Shown piece by piece: positions 3,954 through 7,744 of a DNA stretch of 64,000 nt. The position numbers and the translations under genes were made by a program. Position 1 is the stretch's first letter; every line of letters begins with the position of its first letter. The stretch comes from Patescibacteria group bacterium (GTDB taxonomy: Bacteria; Patescibacteriota; Microgenomatia; 0-14-0-10-38-17), in NCBI GenBank assembly GCA_050953885.1, contig JBMNNJ010000002.1, forward strand, positions 41,586 through 105,585, in the 5' to 3' direction. The notes under the pieces were generated by a model. That model saw nothing but the letters and a program-made list of their open reading frames with translations, did no database searches and had not been told where the DNA came from.

Positions 3954-4111
3954 TTTCTCATTTTAAATTTATAACCATAAAAAAAGAAGCCAACGGAGGC
4001 TTCTTTTTCAAAAACACCAACTACTTAACCTTAAGGCCTTATGTTTACAAGAAAAATCCTGCTTTCTCCAAAACCTTTACCTCCAAAAGTGTTTTAATTC
4101 TATCACAAGCT

Positions 4112-4345
4112 TTAGCAAATGACAACTGAAACACGAATTAAAACGAATGGGAAACGAATGGACACGAATGAGCGAATAAAAATAATTCAAAAGGCAAAAG
4201 TCAAAATTCAAAAGTACAAGTTAAAAGTCAAAATTAGAAAACTAAATTGCTAAATTGTTAAAAACGTCATCCTGATGAAAATCAGGATCTGCCTTATCCA
4301 CTAAACAAGAAACGATTCTGTCCGCCAGCTGGCGGATCGTCAGAA
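4112..4345. repeat. composite spacer of recurrent modules: ATTCG iteron-like array, CAAAAGT word array, TAAATTG array, GAAA-loop hairpins and the TCCGCCAGCTGGCGGA palindrome
   Basis: It reads gaaacacgaattaaaacgaatgggaaacgaatggacacgaatgagcgaat, then caaaagtcaaaattcaaaagt, then ctaaattgctaaattgttaaa, then gtcatcctgatGAAAAtcaggatc, then gtccgccagctggcggatcgtcagaatgac. Every block recurs elsewhere in the window. Confidence 0.7.
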
Positions 4346-4595
4346 TGACAGTTACGATCAGCCCGCAATAATGAAACAAAATTTTCCCCCAATTTTCAAT
4401 TTCTTAATTTCAGCCCCGCCAGAGCGGGGCGAATTTCCAATTTCCATTTATCATTTTCATACTTAATACTTAATACCAATACAGGATATAATTTTTGCCA
4501 TTTGCGTTTTGAGTTTATTTTTCGCGTCCATTCGCATCTTTTACCCATGAAAGTTTGAAATAAGCAAAGGGAATCTTAAGAAGACAGGGGTTTAA

Positions 4596-5750
4596 TTACT
4601 TTTCTTCAGGAGTCTGGCCGGTTTTGTTTTCCTCTTCTTTTTTCAAAACCTCTTTTTTATAATGCCGCACCTCGGCCTCCAAGAGCTTTTTCTCGTCAAG
4701 CTGGCGTTTAATGGAAATGATAAGCAGAATAATAATCGCCAGCGCCAAGGCAACGGCGAGCATTATCTTCCACGGCAAAATCCAAAAGAAAATGGTGTAG
4801 GTAAGCGTTTGGCCGTCGCCATAAAGGCCATTAAGGGTGGCGGCGTAGCGGCCAAAATGCCATTTGCCGCCAAATTCCGCCTCATATTTTCTCCCCGCTT
4901 GAGGAAGAATGTTTTGCTGGGGAAGATGAATCAACTCGCCGTCGGCAAGTCCCAGTGTATTTTTCACCTCAATTTCCAAAACCGGCTTAATATGAACATT
5001 ACTTTGGTTTAAAATCCGGGCGGAAAATGGCACCGGACCATACTCGTAAATCGTCTTGGGAGTGGAAAATTCGCTTACCTGAGCGGCAAAATTAACCGGG
5101 CCGGCAATTCTCACCAGATGAAGCGAAGCGACATTTAAATTCACCGCCGCCCCACCTACCGGCCGGCCTGAAGCATCAACGTTCGCCTGCTCCCCCGCCA
5201 ATAAAGCGGTGAGGGCAAAATAAAAACCGCCCGGTTCCGCCGTTTGCGGTAGACTAATGGTATAAACCACTTCCGCCCGCTCACCCGGCTCAAGATCCAA
5301 AACCGCCGGATTAATAATCACCCAGTTTTGAGAATCAGGCAGTTCCTCATCGGCCACATCCACCCCGCCTGTTTCTCCGGCGGCAGTAAAAGGCGAGGCC
5401 CGTAAAATCAAGCGCACTTTTTGCTCCCCTTGATTGGTTAACGCAAGCTGATAAGAATTTGTGCTTCCCGGTGAAAGCTCCAGCTCGCGCACCGGCGGGC
5501 TAATGGTTAAAAAGTTGGCGTTTGGAGAAACTGGGGTGGGAGTGGGGACGGGGGAAAGCTCTAAAGCCGGAGAAGGAGAAACCGTGACCACCGCGCTTCC
5601 CGCCGGGGTGGCTGTTTCTACCACAACTTCCTCCTCTTGGGCGCCTGTCTGGCTTGTCCCCAAAAGGCTTAAGGCGGTTAAAAGAAAAAGAAAAAAGTAG
5701 GCAGGTCTTATTTTCATTTTGAGAATTATTTTATATAAATCAAAATGCAA
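4596..5750 (-). CDS. secreted surface protein with N-terminal signal peptide, Pro/Thr-rich linker and C-terminal transmembrane anchor with a charged tail (architecture resembles Gram-positive CscA/DUF916-type anchored proteins; family not verified)
   Basis: The 384 aa ORF has a hydrophobic signal sequence (MKIRPAYFFLFLLTALSLLGTSQTGAQ; an alternative start is at the internal Met near 5717), then a PTPTPVSP linker. Its C-terminus has a transmembrane helix (LAVALALAIIILLIISI) followed by a KR-rich tail. The gene is inserted between rplC and rpsJ. Confidence 0.6.
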   Translation of the reverse strand: MHFDLYKIILKMKIRPAYFFLFLLTALSLLGTSQTGAQEEEVVVETATPAGSAVVTVSPSPALELSPVPTPTPVSPNANFLTISPPVRELELSPGSTNSYQLALTNQGEQKVRLILRASPFTAAGETGGVDVADEELPDSQNWVIINPAVLDLEPGERAEVVYTISLPQTAEPGGFYFALTALLAGEQANVDASGRPVGGAAVNLNVASLHLVRIAGPVNFAAQVSEFSTPKTIYEYGPVPFSARILNQSNVHIKPVLEIEVKNTLGLADGELIHLPQQNILPQAGRKYEAEFGGKWHFGRYAATLNGLYGDGQTLTYTIFFWILPWKIMLAVALALAIIILLIISIKRQLDEKKLLEAEVRHYKKEVLKKEEENKTGQTPEEK

Positions 5751-5766
5751 ATGTCAAATACAATTC

Positions 5767-5842
5767 TGTAGGGGCGGACCCATGTGTCCGCCCGTCAAGA
5801 GGTCCGTACCTTAATCGGGTCGACACATGGGTCGACCCCTAC
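5767..5842. repeat. REP/REPIN-like doublet: two GTAG-headed GC-rich hairpins in inverted orientation
   Basis: tGTAGGGGCGGACccatgtGTCCGCCCgtcaa...GGGTCGACacatggGTCGACCCCTACg. The outer arms tgtagggg/cccctaca pair, and each half is GTAG plus a hairpin. Confidence 0.6.
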
Positions 5843-5935
5843 GGGTTTCTTTGCGTTTTGCGATTTAAGATTTGAGTTTATTTATTGTTTTTGAATTTCT
5901 AATTTTAACTTTTGAATTTTGAATTTTGAATTTTT

Positions 5936-7219
5936 TTAGTACCTCCCCGTGCATAAATAGGAAACCGTCCCTGAATACACACCCGCGGGCTGAAGCCCGG
6001 AAATTTCCACCCTATAAACTACATACCCCTGACCATTGGTGTCCCCACCCGTACCCGCGCCATTGGCCGGACCGTCATGGGACAAAATCGCCTCATAAGT
6101 GGTAGAAAGACCGGCAAACTTGGCGCCGGTAAAACGGTCCGCCACGCCGCCCGTGCCAAGATCATCTAAGGTTAAATCGGTCGTCCCATAGCCAATATGG
6201 CCATAAGTTTGCTCCGTGCCCGCCGTACCCGAAGGTGGGGCCCACACCGCGGGCGTACTATTATCCTGCAAAATGCCATCTTGGAAAACGTCAATATCAT
6301 CCACCGTGGCCGAGCAAAGCGTGCCGGGCGTGCCGTCGGCATTACATTCATAATGCTTGACGGCAAAATAAAAACCATGAGCGCCGTTGGTAGAAACCTT
6401 AATCAGCTGGCCCGATTGGGAAGCCTGATTAGCGTTTAAAATCCCAAAAGGAATGGTGGTGGCGGTGGTGGTAAAACCGGCCGTGCCATAAGTATTGCCG
6501 CCGAGAGTGTCAAAATTTATTCCCGAGGCAACCCCCGCCACTTCGCAAGAAAGGGTCGCCTGCACCTCGGCGGTAATGGTAACCGCGTCGATAATCGCCA
6601 CCCGCACCGTCGCCTTATCAAGGGTAACAGAACTGGCGTCCTGGGTTTCATAGGCCACTACATAAGTATCGGCTATTCCCGCTCCCGCTAACTTAGCTGG
6701 ATTGGCAATATCATCAAGTCCGGTGGCAGCCCCGTCGCCAATGGTAATCTCCACATACTGATCGGCGGGAATACCGGCACAAGCACCTTCGCCCGGCAGA
6801 GTAAAAGTAATAATCTCATCGGTAGCATTTACTCCCACCCCCACCATACCGCTACCCGGCGTTCCTCCCAAAGTACAAGGAGTCGCCCCCGACATATCGG
6901 CGCTGGCGCTGTAGCGCATCATCATATCCGCCGCATCATGATCGGTAGTTATATTAAATTCGGTGGGGTAATCAATAATAATTTTTCCCGACAAGGGAAT
7001 AGCGGTGGTGGTTTGAAAATAGGCCGTGTGTTTGGTGTTGGGAAACTCGGGCCGGGAATCGGAGAGAGTCAGCTTGGCATTACGAAGGTTGGCTACCGAC
7101 CAGGCGGTTTGTCGCCCAACAACTTGGGGGAAAAGGGTAAAAAAGAACAAAGAAACAATTAAAAAAGAACCACCAATTCGGGCGATTGGCGAATCACCCC
7201 GGCATTTAATTTTGCTCAT
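5936..7219 (-). CDS. secreted Thr/Gly-rich, Cys-containing extracellular protein (putative adhesin/surface protein), function unknown
   Basis: The 427 aa ORF has an N-terminal hydrophobic segment (SFLIVSLFFFTLF), low-complexity T/G/A-rich repeats and 6 or more Cys. It is co-oriented with the neighbouring anchored protein. Confidence 0.55.
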   Translation of the reverse strand: MSKIKCRGDSPIARIGGSFLIVSLFFFTLFPQVVGRQTAWSVANLRNAKLTLSDSRPEFPNTKHTAYFQTTTAIPLSGKIIIDYPTEFNITTDHDAADMMMRYSASADMSGATPCTLGGTPGSGMVGVGVNATDEIITFTLPGEGACAGIPADQYVEITIGDGAATGLDDIANPAKLAGAGIADTYVVAYETQDASSVTLDKATVRVAIIDAVTITAEVQATLSCEVAGVASGINFDTLGGNTYGTAGFTTTATTIPFGILNANQASQSGQLIKVSTNGAHGFYFAVKHYECNADGTPGTLCSATVDDIDVFQDGILQDNSTPAVWAPPSGTAGTEQTYGHIGYGTTDLTLDDLGTGGVADRFTGAKFAGLSTTYEAILSHDGPANGAGTGGDTNGQGYVVYRVEISGLQPAGVYSGTVSYLCTGRY

Positions 7220-7439
7220 CTTAACTTAATTATTAACAAAACTTTTTCTTTTGTCAAGAAAGAAACCGCAGATTAAATTGTTTTATTGCTGGCGCGAACT
7301 GAAATCCGCTAATCCATTTTTTGGGAGTAGCGCAATTTATTGCGCGCTTTTCTTGGCGCTACACTTTTCCCCTTAATTTCACTATTAGCGCTCTTCCCTC
7401 TTATCAAAGAGTAAGTTTTCCTTGGCTGATTTTCAGCGT

Positions 7440-7740
7440 AGCAATCTTTTTTCCTGTTGTCAAGAAGATTCTGAATCAAGTTCAGAATGACGCTAATCGT
7501 GGCCGTCATTCCTGAATTAAATTCAGGACAGGTTCTGACGAAAGTGTCCTTCTGACGAAAGTCAGAATCATTCCTTAAGACAAGACGATCCTGAATCAAG
7601 TTCAGGATGACGTTTTTAACAATTTAGCAATTTAGTTTTCTAATTTTGACTTTTAACTTGCACTTTTGACTTTTAACTTTTGAATTTTGAATTTTTTTTC
7701 ATTCGTGTTAATTCGTGTTTTTAGCAATTTAACAATCTCG
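7440..7740. repeat. composite spacer of the same module set (ctgaatcaagttcag hairpins, tctgacGAAAgtcaga hairpins, TAAATTG, CAAAAGT and ATTCG modules)
   Basis: Direct reading; near-identical blocks occur at 32195-32275, 4245-4345 and 16758-16780. Confidence 0.7.
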
Positions 7741-7744
7741 TCTT

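What the first reader, a model, noticed from the sequence alone, without database searches (positions are those of the whole stretch)
3954..7744. The universally conserved S10 operon is split between rplC and rpsJ by a 3.7 kb insert encoding two surface or secreted proteins
rpsJ (7745-8053) and rplC (3303-3953) are normally adjacent. Here two co-oriented genes lie between them. One is a 384 aa protein with a signal peptide, PT-rich linker and C-terminal TM anchor. The other is a 427 aa Thr/Gly-rich, Cys-containing secreted protein. The three boundaries (3954-4595, 5751-5935, 7220-7744) are dense with the recurrent repeat modules and a REPIN-like doublet, so the insertion looks repeat-mediated. 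A TTGACA-N17-AATAAT promoter-like site sits just upstream of the 427 aa gene (minus strand, about 7225-7256). The pair may therefore be transcribed both on its own and by read-through with ribosomal proteins. Surface proteins embedded in the core translation operon are unusual.
Basis: partly seen in the sequence, partly recalled or inferred. Interest (0 to 1): 0.75.

Follow-up and report, generated by a model that had tools for sequence, protein, structure and literature searches.

The report
Pilus genes between rpsJ and rplC
In this ultra-small (CPR, Shapirobacteria-like) bacterium, the two genes between ribosomal genes rpsJ and rplC most likely encode the fibre subunit and membrane-anchored chaperone of the recently described CPR "Pam" pilus; one sub-lineage moved them there, and the surrounding repeats are genome-wide intergenic elements rather than the cause.

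Summary
rpsJ (7745-8053) and rplC (3303-3953) lie 3.8 kb apart, with two co-oriented, well-conserved genes between them.

- **Identity.** The 427-aa protein is a two-domain, all-beta secreted protein. It gives a full-length but sub-threshold match to NCBIfam CPR_Pam_pilin_C. The 384-aa protein (probably 373 aa, starting at ATG 5717) models as a PapD/FimC- and WxLIP-like two-domain chaperone with a C-terminal membrane helix. Together they look like a Pam-type pilin plus cognate chaperone.
- **Synteny.** Relatives with at least 72-78% pilin identity carry the same order, fusA-tuf-rpsJ-pilin-chaperone-rplC. More distant Shapirobacteria keep the pair in a 6-8-gene pilus cluster with a PamT-like tip pilin and a second chaperone.
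- **Polarity.** Neighbour-joining trees nest the ribosomal-context clade inside the cluster clade, so this is a lineage-specific relocation.
- **How unusual.** The rpsJ|rplC junction is tight in 72 of 78 sampled genomes. It is open in all three Saccharibacteria with both genes on the locus, and in two other Shapirobacteria.
- **Repeats.** The junction repeats occur in 18 other blocks of the window, all but one between ORFs, and are missing or different in near-identical relatives. They did not mediate the insertion.

Verdict: a new member of a known kind in a new genomic context. Interest is moderate.

The parts
7745..8053 (-). rpsJ (S10), last gene of the fusA-tuf-rpsJ run
   Evidence: Pfam PF00338, E 2e-31. 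The order fusA-tuf-rpsJ is seen in the window and in relatives.
7476..7744 (.). Variable, repeat-filled part of the rpsJ-pilin spacer. Includes one arm (7602-7699) of the 98-nt inverted pair and most of the hairpin-containing direct repeats 7451-7492 / 7571-7612, the first of which starts just inside the conserved block.
   Evidence: Module content differs in the same-species contig L003 and is mostly absent in L007.
7220..7475 (-). Upstream region of the pilin gene. It is conserved except for one variable REP-like module at about 7290-7360. It holds the proximal promoter-like site TTGACA-N17-AATAAT (7257-7229) and a second conserved TTCTTGACAA motif at about 7466-7457.
   Evidence: for the promoter scan. 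Alignments show conservation in L003, L007 and L092. The proximal TTGACA block is also present upstream of the pilin in L001, which lies outside the ribosomal context.
5936..7219 (-). 427-aa Pam-like pilin. Signal-like helix 11-29, N-terminal beta sandwich about 46-209, invariant linker strand about 201-222, C-terminal Ig-like domain 223-427.
   Evidence: NF058581 CPR_Pam_pilin_C, E 3.9e-5, model positions 3-148 of 148. AF2 pLDDT 87.5. Conservation profile and Cys pairs. hhalign to a PamT-like neighbour gives 94.9% probability.
5718..5935 (.). Pilin-chaperone spacer. Most of it is a strain-specific insertion: repeat modules 5850-5937 and a 75-nt perfect-type hairpin 5768-5842.
   Evidence: Hairpin dG -52.6 kcal/mol, z -7.0. 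The spacer is only 64 nt in same-species L003 and in L007, and 28 nt in L001.
4596..5717 (-). Membrane-anchored PapD/WxLIP-like chaperone. 373 aa from ATG 5717; the mechanical ORF start is TTG 5750.
   Evidence: AF2 pLDDT 86.5, with two beta domains at 81-185 and 206-324 and a helix from 327. Foldseek top hits are WxLIP 9i1y/9i25 at 1e-11, then CfaA, CsuC, FimC and Caf1M. PF06030 is found in 35 of 55 relatives.
4126..4595 (.). Variable, repeat-filled part of the chaperone-rplC spacer. Includes the other arm (4178-4275) of the 98-nt inverted pair.
   Evidence: Shorter or different in L007 and L091.
3954..4125 (-). Conserved rplC upstream block. Promoter-like TTGTCA-N17-TAGAAT with TG (4125-4097), then a leader of about 140 nt ending in a terminator-like hairpin plus U-run (4009-3980), 26 nt before the rplC ATG.
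   Evidence: It is 96.5% identical in L091 and 84.9% in L110, at or above the identity of the flanking coding genes.
3303..3953 (-). rplC (L3), first gene of the rplC-rplD-rplW-rplB-rpsS-rplV run
   Evidence: Pfam PF00297, E 3e-17. ORF order.

Best explanation
The two genes are a pilus module of the CPR-specific 'Pam' type. The 427-aa protein is a major pilin. It is exported by Sec and then polymerises when its central linker strand is donated into the incomplete Ig-like C-terminal domain of the next subunit. The 373/384-aa protein is its cognate chaperone. It has a two-domain PapD/FimC-like fold, is tethered to the cytoplasmic membrane by a C-terminal helix, and would hold the pilin until strand exchange.

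In most Shapirobacteria this pair sits inside a 6-8-gene pilus cluster. In the sub-lineage this window belongs to, the pair moved, with the pilin's own promoter-like region, into the boundary between two units: rpoBC-rpsL-rpsG-fusA-tuf-rpsJ on one side and the rplC-led ribosomal operon on the other. It has since been inherited vertically.

The locus is therefore better read as three adjacent units than as one operon broken in two: str/tuf/rpsJ, then pilin-chaperone, then rplC and the genes after it, which carry their own conserved upstream block. Read-through from tuf-rpsJ may add to pilin expression. The REP/MITE-like repeats are later, fast-turning-over occupants of the spacers.

**Shown:** gene identity at fold, profile and context level; synteny and its polarity; turnover of the repeats.
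**Inferred:** donor-strand assembly, transcription units, read-through, and any selective benefit of the position.
For: **Pilin**
- Full-length match to NF058581 CPR_Pam_pilin_C at E 3.9e-5. 31 of 57 family members match at E <= 0.01.
- The AF2 model shows two beta domains joined by a strand.
- The linker (201-220) and the C-terminal strand (421-427) are the most conserved segments: 100% within the close clade, 84% and 92% in the distant clade. The Pam paper reports the same pattern for the donated linker and its binding site (bioRxiv 10.64898/2026.03.03.709456).
- Six of the seven Cys are present in all 13 close-clade sequences; C115, C147, C225 and C423 are also kept in 22-26 of 26 distant-clade sequences, while C292 and C302 are close-clade-specific (3 of 26). 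The grouping into three pairs (115-147, 225-423, 292-302) is inferred from position.
- All family members end on a conserved aromatic C-terminus.

**Chaperone**
- The model has two Ig-like domains plus a C-terminal helix.
- The best PDB matches are WxLIP, then the chaperone-usher chaperones CfaA, CsuC, FimC, Caf1M and SfaE. This is the architecture described for PamC/PamD.

**Context in distant relatives**
- A 246-aa neighbour matches NF058579 CPR_pilus_PamT (1e-15) and the Pam pilin C-domain (7.5e-10). Its C-domain aligns to the pilin family at 94.9% hhalign probability.
- A 309-aa neighbour is a second chaperone paralogue, 99.8% probability.
- A 312-aa signal- and TM-bearing protein follows.

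**Synteny**
- rpsJ-pilin-chaperone-rplC is seen, in overlapping pieces, on contigs from several independent assemblies: L003, L007, L089, L091, L092, L109 and L110.
- The cluster context is seen in L001 and L094-L108.
- An isolated pair occurs in L116.
- The ribosomal-context clade is nested in neighbour-joining trees of both proteins.
- Between the window and L110 the chaperone is 83% nt identical and the ribosomal genes 77-86%, which fits vertical inheritance.

**Own control regions**
- The conserved promoter-like block upstream of the pilin is also present in the non-ribosomal context.
- A conserved block lies upstream of rplC.
Against: - The NCBIfam score (23.8 bits) is far below the curated cutoff of 55. 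Only 1 of 125 wider relatives reaches E 1e-10, so at best this is a distant sister family of the characterised PamA/PamB.
- No solved Pam structure was in the PDB copy, so fold comparison returned only generic Ig-like adhesins and pilins: ClfA, CfaE/CfaB, FimH, Gram-positive pilins, YweA.
- No chaperone-pilin complex could be modelled.
- The tip pilin, second chaperone and anchor-like genes are not in this 64-kb window. Whether this genome can build a complete pilus is unknown.
- The transcription units are inferred from consensus motifs only.
Confidence: 0.7

Rival explanations
1. A WxL/Csc-type cell-surface complex, as in Firmicutes. The 384-aa protein would be a WxLIP (DUF916-DUF3324-TM) that binds and displays the 427-aa protein on the wall as a non-polymerising adhesin complex, rather than assembling a pilus.
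For: The top solved-structure hits of the 384-aa model are E. faecium WxLIP, both alone and bound to a long WxL protein (9i1y and 9i25, E 1e-11). 35 of 55 relatives match PF06030 WxLIP_PGBD, best 5e-10. The architecture matches the published WxLIP description of two Ig-like domains plus a TM helix (PMC10599100).
Against: No WxL domain match appears in the 427-aa protein or in 125 relatives. The window protein itself does not reach PF06030. The partner and its cluster neighbours instead hit the CPR Pam pilin and PamT models. The invariant central linker strand fits strand donation between subunits. The two readings may not be exclusive if WxLIP and the Pam chaperones are homologous.
Confidence: 0.15
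2. A recently acquired mobile cassette. The 98-nt inverted repeats would act as terminal inverted repeats, or as recombination substrates, that inserted the two genes into the S10 operon.
For: A 98-nt, 94% inverted pair brackets the two genes. Repeat modules occur at all three junctions. The modules are clearly mobile, since they show presence/absence differences between near-identical strains.
Against: The same modules occur in 18 other blocks of the window, three of them inside the rplV-rplC ribosomal gene run. No homologue of either inserted gene occurs elsewhere in the window, and transposases were not searched for. The bracketing copies are not conserved at these positions in same-species L003 or in L007. 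The gene order persists down to about 80% nt identity, with the chaperone diverging in step with the ribosomal genes.
Confidence: 0.05
3. The position carries no function. The rpsJ|rplC boundary is simply a permissive gap in CPR genomes where any gene can land. Position then has no effect on expression, and the products are surface proteins of unknown role, not a pilus.
For: The three Saccharibacteria with both genes on the locus carry 1.2-3.0 kb of unrelated genes in the same gap, some on the opposite strand. Two other Shapirobacteria have rplC with no rpsJ within the 3-8 kb of upstream sequence held. The pair also occurs alone among housekeeping genes in L116.
Against: This bears only on the significance of the position. 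The identity evidence still stands. Co-orientation and conservation of the arrangement across a clade are compatible with benefit but do not prove it.
Confidence: 0.1

Closest known systems
Pam pili of Candidatus Mycosynbacter amalyticus (PamA/PamB pilins, PamC/PamD chaperones, PamT tip, PamR anchor); Troman et al., bioRxiv 10.64898/2026.03.03.709456
   Same: CPR-restricted. The pilin is Sec-exported and has two domains, a beta sandwich and an Ig-like C-domain, joined by a highly conserved strand, with paired Cys. It sits next to a PapD-like chaperone that keeps a C-terminal membrane helix. Distant relatives have a PamT-like small pilin and a second chaperone in the same cluster. The paper reports Microgenomatia homologues found only by language-model search.
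   Different: Sequence similarity is marginal (23.8 bits against a cutoff of 55). Only the pilin-chaperone pair is present here. It lies between rpsJ and rplC rather than in the ATP-synthase-associated neighbourhood the paper describes. Assembly was not demonstrated.
WxL / Csc surface-protein clusters of Firmicutes with WxLIP (DUF916-DUF3324-TM); PMC10599100; PDB 9i1y and 9i25
   Same: The 384-aa protein shares the WxLIP architecture and is its best structural match. Many of its relatives match PF06030.
   Different: The partner protein has no detectable WxL domain. The organism is a CPR bacterium, not a Firmicute.
Chaperone-usher pili (Pap, Fim, CFA/I, Csu, Caf1)
   Same: Two-domain Ig-like chaperone fold (CfaA, CsuC, FimC and Caf1M hits at E 1e-9 to 1e-8). 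The proposed donor-strand principle is the same. An intercistronic hairpin follows the major pilin gene.
   Different: There is no usher and no outer membrane. The chaperone is membrane-anchored. The donated strand is an internal linker rather than an N-terminal extension (per the Pam paper).
Separate uS10 in Archaea, and multigene insertions between ribosomal operons in Proteobacteria (PMC10833476; PMC6735719)
   Same: rpsJ travels with the elongation-factor genes, and the L3-led cluster is a separate unit. Small multigene insertions at operon boundaries are a known mode of change.
   Different: Here the two units stay adjacent and co-oriented, and the inserted genes are a pilus module.
REP / REPIN / MITE-like intergenic repeats
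   Same: Short, often palindromic modules confined almost entirely to the spaces between ORFs, present in many copies, with presence/absence differences between strains.
   Different: No RAYT or transposase was looked for. The modules are concatenated in variable orders, and the family is uncharacterised.

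Membership tests
Pam pilin (NCBIfam NF058581 CPR_Pam_pilin_C; PamA/PamB) | HMM score at or above the curated cutoff (55 bits) | tested here: not met
   23.8 bits, E 3.9e-5, but covering model positions 3-148 of 148. 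31 of 57 relatives match at E <= 0.01. Only 1 of 125 reaches E <= 1e-10.
Pam pilin (NCBIfam NF058581 CPR_Pam_pilin_C; PamA/PamB) | N-terminal Sec signal peptide | tested here: met
   Basic N-terminus followed by a hydrophobic helix at 11-29 in the sequence and the model. No dedicated signal-peptide predictor was available.
Pam pilin (NCBIfam NF058581 CPR_Pam_pilin_C; PamA/PamB) | N-terminal beta sandwich, single linker strand, C-terminal Ig-like domain | tested here: met
   The AF2 model (pLDDT 87.5) has about ten strands at 46-209, a linker, then strands at 223-425. Whether the C-domain is an incomplete fold needing a donor strand could not be inspected.
Pam pilin (NCBIfam NF058581 CPR_Pam_pilin_C; PamA/PamB) | Linker and C-domain are the most conserved regions | tested here: met
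   Residues 201-220 are 100% and 84% conserved in the close and distant clades. Residues 421-427 are 100% and 92%. These are the highest of all 20-residue bins.
Pam pilin (NCBIfam NF058581 CPR_Pam_pilin_C; PamA/PamB) | Polymerisation into filaments by donor-strand exchange | not testable with these tools
   Needs cryo-EM or a multimer model.
PamC/PamD-type membrane-anchored chaperone | Two Ig-like domains with a PapD/FimC-like fold | tested here: met
   Foldseek hits to CfaA, CsuC, FimC, CupB2, Caf1M and SfaE at E 6e-10 to 6e-8, TM(target) 0.46-0.55.
PamC/PamD-type membrane-anchored chaperone | Signal peptide plus C-terminal transmembrane helix | tested here: met
   Helix 16-35 and a long helix from 327 in the model. 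The hydrophobic stretch ILPWKIMLAVALALAIIILLIISI is followed by a charged tail.
PamC/PamD-type membrane-anchored chaperone | Encoded next to its pilin and binding it by strand complementation | tested here: inconclusive
   Adjacency holds wherever the sequence downstream of the pilin is held, except L094 (400 nt held, no match), the L004/L005/L006 junction and the 34% relative L117. Binding was not modelled.
WxLIP (PF06030 DUF916 + DUF3324 + TM) with a WxL partner | PF06030 match | tested here: not met
   The window protein has no PF06030 hit at E <= 1. 35 of 55 relatives match at E <= 0.01, so the family is homologous but this member is below detection.
WxLIP (PF06030 DUF916 + DUF3324 + TM) with a WxL partner | Partner protein carries a WxL domain | tested here: not met
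   No WxL Pfam match in the 427-aa protein or in 125 relatives.
Canonical bacterial S10 operon (rpsJ-rplC-rplD-rplW-rplB-rpsS-rplV...) | rpsJ immediately followed by rplC | tested here: not met
   The gap is 3,791 nt and holds two genes. The baseline is 72 of 78 genomes at 300 nt or less.
Canonical bacterial S10 operon (rpsJ-rplC-rplD-rplW-rplB-rpsS-rplV...) | Remaining gene order retained | tested here: met
   rplC, rplD, rplW, rplB, rpsS and rplV lie in order at 3953-474 on the minus strand. Pfam labels of the same-species contig agree.
REP/REPIN elements | Short palindromic intergenic repeats in many copies, associated with a RAYT transposase | tested here: inconclusive
   26 repeat blocks covering 5% of the window, all but one between ORFs of 120 aa or more. 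Hairpin-forming members are present. A RAYT gene was not searched for.

The most novel reading that the evidence does not exclude
Two linked ideas are not excluded by the evidence.

1. The membrane-anchored chaperones of CPR Pam pili and the WxLIP (DUF916/DUF3324) proteins of Firmicute WxL/Csc clusters may be one homologous family. If so, 'chaperone-only' strand-complementation surface fibres would be an ancient feature of bacteria without an outer membrane, not a CPR invention.
2. In this Shapirobacteria lineage the major pilin may have been placed behind tuf-rpsJ so that read-through from one of the cell's strongest transcription units couples pilus output to growth.
Probability: 0.25. Interest if true: 0.65.

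Novelty: new member of a known kind. Interest (0 to 1): 0.4.

Why it matters
- **Naming.** Two 'hypothetical' genes in a very conspicuous position get a testable identity.
- **Family reach.** The Pam pilus family, described in 2026, is extended to a large and divergent Shapirobacteria/Microgenomatia subfamily. A profile search found about 2,900 representatives at E <= 0.001, and the curated models do not capture them.
- **Minimal unit.** The pilin-chaperone pair behaves as a portable unit. It is found in a multi-gene cluster, alone among housekeeping genes, and between ribosomal genes.
- **WxLIP link.** The sequence-level link between Pam-type chaperones and Firmicute WxLIP proteins does not appear in the main text of the Pam paper. 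It could connect two poorly understood surface systems.
- **Genome annotation.** rpsJ-rplC adjacency, often assumed when ribosomal-protein blocks are used as markers, is not reliable in CPR lineages.
- **Host interaction.** The pilin diverges much faster than its chaperone between close strains. That is the pattern expected of a host- or phage-exposed structure in an episymbiont.

Tried and rejected
- **Genome scan with rpsJ.** The patterns saturated on Gammaproteobacteria (GPIPLPTK). It was reused as a baseline for rpsJ-rplC spacing.
- **Sequence search of the PDB with both proteins.** Nothing.
- **Rfam on 3200-8200.** No match. The rplC upstream block and the hairpins are not known RNA families.
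- **The element GCGCGCAATAAATTGCGCTAC upstream of the pilin.** It looked like a pilus-specific regulatory motif, with 4 copies in the L001 cluster. It also occurs upstream of rplC in L112 and, diverged, elsewhere in the window. It was rejected as another dispersed repeat.
- **L004/L005/L006.** Here the pilin is followed by an inverted rpoC, which suggested a repeat-mediated inversion. The junction cuts 75 nt into the chaperone gene and about 500 nt from the rpoC end. It is treated as a chimera or a non-functional rearrangement and was not used as evidence.
- **A chaperone-specific promoter (TTGACA-N18-TAAAAT, 5757-5728).** It lies in the strain-specific insertion and is not conserved in L003 or L007. 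It was not counted as a feature.
- **Other pilus genes in the window.** A search for paralogues or the rest of the pilus cluster found none.

Full report
**1. The observation**

All genes here are on the minus strand. The window reads fusA (9367-11484), tuf (8084-9295), rpsJ (7745-8053), a 427-aa ORF (5936-7219), a 384-aa ORF (4596-5750), then rplC (3303-3953), rplD, rplW, rplB, rpsS and rplV. Pfam confirms S10 and L3. The spacers are 525, 185 and 642 nt.

Both inserted ORFs are genuine genes. They have 140 and 76 homologues in the protein collection. Aligned with these, they give confident AlphaFold models with mean pLDDT of 87.5 and 86.5.

Names attached to close homologues place the organism in Candidatus Shapirobacteria (Microgenomatia, CPR). 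The closest named L3 is 82% identical and comes from a Shapirobacteria MAG.

The chaperone-like gene more probably starts at ATG 5717 than at the mechanical TTG 5750.

**2. How unusual the split is**

The one genome scan I spent on rpsJ returned mostly distant phyla, but it serves as a baseline.

- In 78 loci holding both genes, 72 have a gap of 300 nt or less (median 43.5 nt).
- The six exceptions include all three Saccharibacteria with both genes, at 1.2, 1.8 and 3.0 kb.
- Those gaps hold unrelated genes, some on the opposite strand.
- In two other Shapirobacteria (L3 67-68% identical), rplC is preceded by divergently transcribed bAvd and DUF2341/LamG genes. No rpsJ was detected in the upstream sequence held: 8 kb in L112, 3 kb in L113.
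- In Archaea, uS10 is always separate from uL3-uL4-uL23 (PMC10833476).
- Small multigene insertions between ribosomal operons are documented in Proteobacteria (PMC6735719).

The junction is therefore tight in most bacteria but is a recurrent soft spot in CPR. 'Universally conserved' overstates the case.

**3. What the two genes are**

*The 427-aa protein.*
- It has no Pfam family. It gives a full-length match to the NCBIfam domain model CPR_Pam_pilin_C: E 3.9e-5, 23.8 bits against a cutoff of 55.
- 31 of 57 relatives match the same model at E <= 0.01. Only 1 of 125 wider relatives reaches 1e-10.
- The model shows a signal-like helix, a beta sandwich at about 46-209, a connecting strand, and a second beta domain at 223-427.

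*Comparison with the Pam paper.* The Pam pilus was described in 2026 from Ca. Mycosynbacter amalyticus. Its pilins have exactly this layout and assemble by donating the linker strand into the next subunit's truncated Ig domain. The linker and its binding site are the most conserved parts, and paired cysteines are present. The chaperones PamC/PamD are PapD/FimC-like but keep a C-terminal membrane helix. Microgenomatia homologues were detectable only by language-model search.

*The same features here.*
- The linker (201-220) and the C-terminal strand (421-427) are the most conserved bins.
- Six of the seven Cys are invariant in the close clade; 115, 147, 225 and 423 are also conserved in the distant clade, while 292 and 302 are close-clade-specific. 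Their grouping into pairs 115-147, 225-423 and 292-302 is inferred.

*The 384-aa protein.*
- It models as two Ig-like domains followed by a long C-terminal helix.
- Its best solved-structure matches are E. faecium WxLIP (9i1y, 9i25; E 1e-11). Next come the chaperone-usher chaperones CfaA, CsuC, FimC, CupB2, Caf1M and SfaE, and also RbmA.
- 35 of 55 relatives match PF06030, the former DUF916, now the WxLIP peptidoglycan-binding domain.

*Limits of the fold evidence.* Fold searches with the pilin model returned only generic Ig-like adhesins and pilins. No Pam structure was in the PDB copy, so the fold test is consistent but not decisive.

**4. Context in relatives**

*Close clade.* Contigs whose pilin is 78-94% identical show, in overlapping pieces, fusA-tuf-rpsJ-pilin-chaperone-rplC. 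L003 is the same species. The others are L007, L089, L091, L092, L109 and L110, the last from the MAG GCA_018052565.1.

*Distant clade.* Contigs whose pilin is 60-67% identical carry a different, conserved cluster with no ribosomal genes (L001, L094-L108, L115). Taken across these contigs its order is:
1. a membrane protein
2. a TPR protein
3. a 309-aa second chaperone
4. the pilin
5. the chaperone
6. a 246-aa protein (placed before the second chaperone in some lineages, e.g. L094 and L102)
7. a 312-aa protein with signal and TM segments
8. a Big_1 protein

- The 246-aa protein matches CPR_pilus_PamT (1e-15) and the Pam pilin C-domain (7.5e-10). Its C-domain aligns with the pilin family at 94.9% hhalign probability.
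- The 309-aa protein is a chaperone paralogue, 99.8% probability.
- A 52% relative has the pair alone among housekeeping genes.

*Polarity and age.*
- In rough neighbour-joining trees of both proteins, the ribosomal-context clade is monophyletic and nested inside the cluster-context diversity. The ribosomal position is therefore derived.
- Between the window and L110 the chaperone is 83% nt identical, against 77-86% for the flanking ribosomal genes. This is what vertical inheritance since an old relocation predicts.
- None of the other cluster genes lies in this 64-kb window.

**5. The repeats**

Self-comparison finds 26 repeat blocks covering 5% of the window. All but one (12114-12244) lie between ORFs of 120 aa or more. 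Three sit at other junctions inside the ribosomal gene run: rpsS-rplB, rplW-rplD and rplD-rplC.

The 98-nt inverted pair that brackets the insert is the longest match, but it is not a conserved boundary.

- The same-species contig L003 is 97-99% identical in most genes (94-100% gene by gene), yet carries different modules in the rpsJ-pilin spacer. Its pilin-chaperone spacer is only 64 nt.
- That 64-nt spacer lacks the 5850-5937 modules and the 75-nt hairpin 5768-5842 (dG -52.6 kcal/mol, z -7.0).
- L007, a 93% pilin relative, has the same gene order with spacers of about 330 and 64 nt.

The repeats are mobile, REP/MITE-like occupants of the spacers. They came after the arrangement and did not cause it.

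**6. Control regions (inferred)**

*Upstream of the pilin.*
- It is conserved in L003, L007, L092 and L004. The TTGACA block is also present upstream of the pilin in the non-ribosomal cluster of L001. The pilin appears to have moved with its own upstream region.
- The block 7365-7475, including a second TTCTTGACAA motif, is conserved across the close clade, while the sequence nearer rpsJ is variable.
- Only one weak terminator-like hairpin lies between rpsJ and the pilin, so read-through from tuf-rpsJ is possible but untested.

*Upstream of the chaperone.* The promoter-like site before the chaperone lies in the strain-specific insertion and is not conserved. In the distant clade the two genes are as little as 28 nt apart (L001), so co-transcription is more likely.

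*Upstream of rplC.*
- A 172-nt block (4125-3954) is 96.5% identical in L091 and 84.9% in L110, at or above the identity of the neighbouring coding genes.
- It holds TTGTCA-N17-TAGAAT with an extended TG, and a terminator-like hairpin with a U-run at 4009-3980, 26 nt before the start codon.
- The overall fold is not significant against shuffles (z -1.5), and Rfam has no match.
- Two readings remain open. It could be an attenuator-type leader for the rplC operon. Its layout recalls the E. coli S10 leader, which I cite from my own knowledge. Alternatively it could be the terminator of the pilus unit overlapping a short rplC promoter, as in the terminator-promoter overlaps of PMC6735719. Transcript mapping is needed to decide.

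**7. A further pattern: the pilin evolves fast**

Within the close clade the pilin diverges much faster than its neighbours.

| Contig | Pilin nt identity | Chaperone nt identity |
|---|---|---|
| L114 | 76.6% | 95.5% |
| L091 | 86.6% | 95.1% |
| L092 | 82.2% | 90.6% |

At the amino-acid level L114 is 72% for the pilin and 96% for the chaperone. The linker and the C-terminus stay invariant throughout. This is the pattern expected for an exposed major subunit under diversifying selection or allelic replacement.

**8. Comparison with known systems, and verdict**

*Function.* The pair most resembles a Pam pilus major subunit with its tethered chaperone.

*Membership.*
- The curated HMM threshold is not met, so I file it as a distant sister subfamily, not a bona fide PamA/PamB. 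A profile search found 2,903 representatives at E <= 0.001.
- The chaperone belongs to the same broad family as Firmicute WxLIP. The terms WxL and DUF916 do not occur in the main text of the Pam paper.
- The partner has no WxL domain.

- Right about the split, the surface nature of the products, the DUF916/WxL lead and the promoter-like site.
- Wrong about the repeats as mechanism.
- Too strong on universality.

*Overall.* This is a new member of a known kind in a new genomic context. Interest is moderate. The most interesting open readings are the WxLIP-Pam chaperone homology and possible expression coupling to tuf-rpsJ.

Noticed in passing
window 5936-7219 versus L114:152-1417, L091 and L092: The pilin gene diverges much faster than the adjacent chaperone between close strains. 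In L114 the pilin is 76.6% nt identical and the chaperone 95.5%. The linker strand and the C-terminus stay invariant. This suggests diversifying selection or allelic replacement of the exposed subunit.
   Followed up: partly
window 3954-4125: The non-coding block upstream of rplC is conserved as well as, or better than, the coding genes (96.5% in L091, 84.9% in L110). It has a promoter-like site and a terminator-like hairpin 26 nt before the start codon. It could be an attenuator-type leader or a terminator-promoter overlap. Rfam has no match.
   Followed up: partly
window 5751-5935: About 136 nt is present here but absent from a same-species contig (L003) and from L007. It consists of repeat modules plus a 75-nt hairpin (dG -52.6 kcal/mol, z -7.0) that is unique in the window. 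This is a presence/absence polymorphism of a REPIN/MITE-like element between strains that are about 98% identical.
   Followed up: yes
window 1152-1309, 2481-2529, 3258-3334 and 18 further blocks: The same repeat modules also sit between rpsS-rplB, rplW-rplD and rplD-rplC, giving unusually long spacers (52-197 nt) inside a ribosomal protein operon. In total 26 blocks cover 5% of the window.
   Followed up: partly
L004:3590-3920 (also L005, L006): In a 79% pilin relative, the pilin is followed by repeat modules and the first 75 nt of the chaperone gene, then an abrupt junction to the middle of rpoC in inverted orientation. It is seen on contigs held by three sources (ENA, JGI, Logan), whose underlying samples may not be independent. 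It is either a chimera formed through repeats or a real, gene-destroying rearrangement.
   Followed up: partly
L041:10300-11514, L068:10300-13301, L082:10297-12111: Three Saccharibacteria genomes carry 1.2-3.0 kb of unrelated genes between rpsJ and rplC. These include an 810-aa protein on the opposite strand and small membrane proteins.
   Followed up: partly
L112:1-7451 and L113:1-2525: In two other Shapirobacteria, rplC is preceded by a divergent bAvd-like gene (PF05635/PF22296) and very large DUF2341/LamG proteins. bAvd is, from my own knowledge, an accessory protein of diversity-generating retroelements. No rpsJ was detected in the upstream sequence held.
   Followed up: no
L116:8001-10186: In GCA_054031995.1 a pilin (52% identical) and its chaperone stand alone among housekeeping genes. 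The two-gene module therefore occurs without the rest of the cluster in another lineage too.
   Followed up: partly
window 7327-7347; L001:9862, 12456, 15049, 15824; L112:7587: A hairpin-containing element, GCGCGCAATAAATTGCGCTAC and the sequence after it, is shared between distant Shapirobacteria lineages. It has 4 copies in the spacers of the L001 pilus cluster. It also occurs in a non-pilus context, so it is probably another dispersed repeat family.
   Followed up: yes
window 7219, 5717, 3953, 8053 (start codons): By eye, no Shine-Dalgarno-like GGAGG precedes the start codons of rpsJ, the pilin, the chaperone or rplC. Promoter-like -10 elements end only about 10 nt before the pilin and chaperone ATGs. 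This hints at leaderless or SD-independent initiation.
   Followed up: no
window 62335-63264 / 62337-62410: The only tRNA in the window (tRNA-Cys) lies at the start of a 309-aa mechanical ORF on the same strand, so that ORF's start is probably spurious.
   Followed up: no
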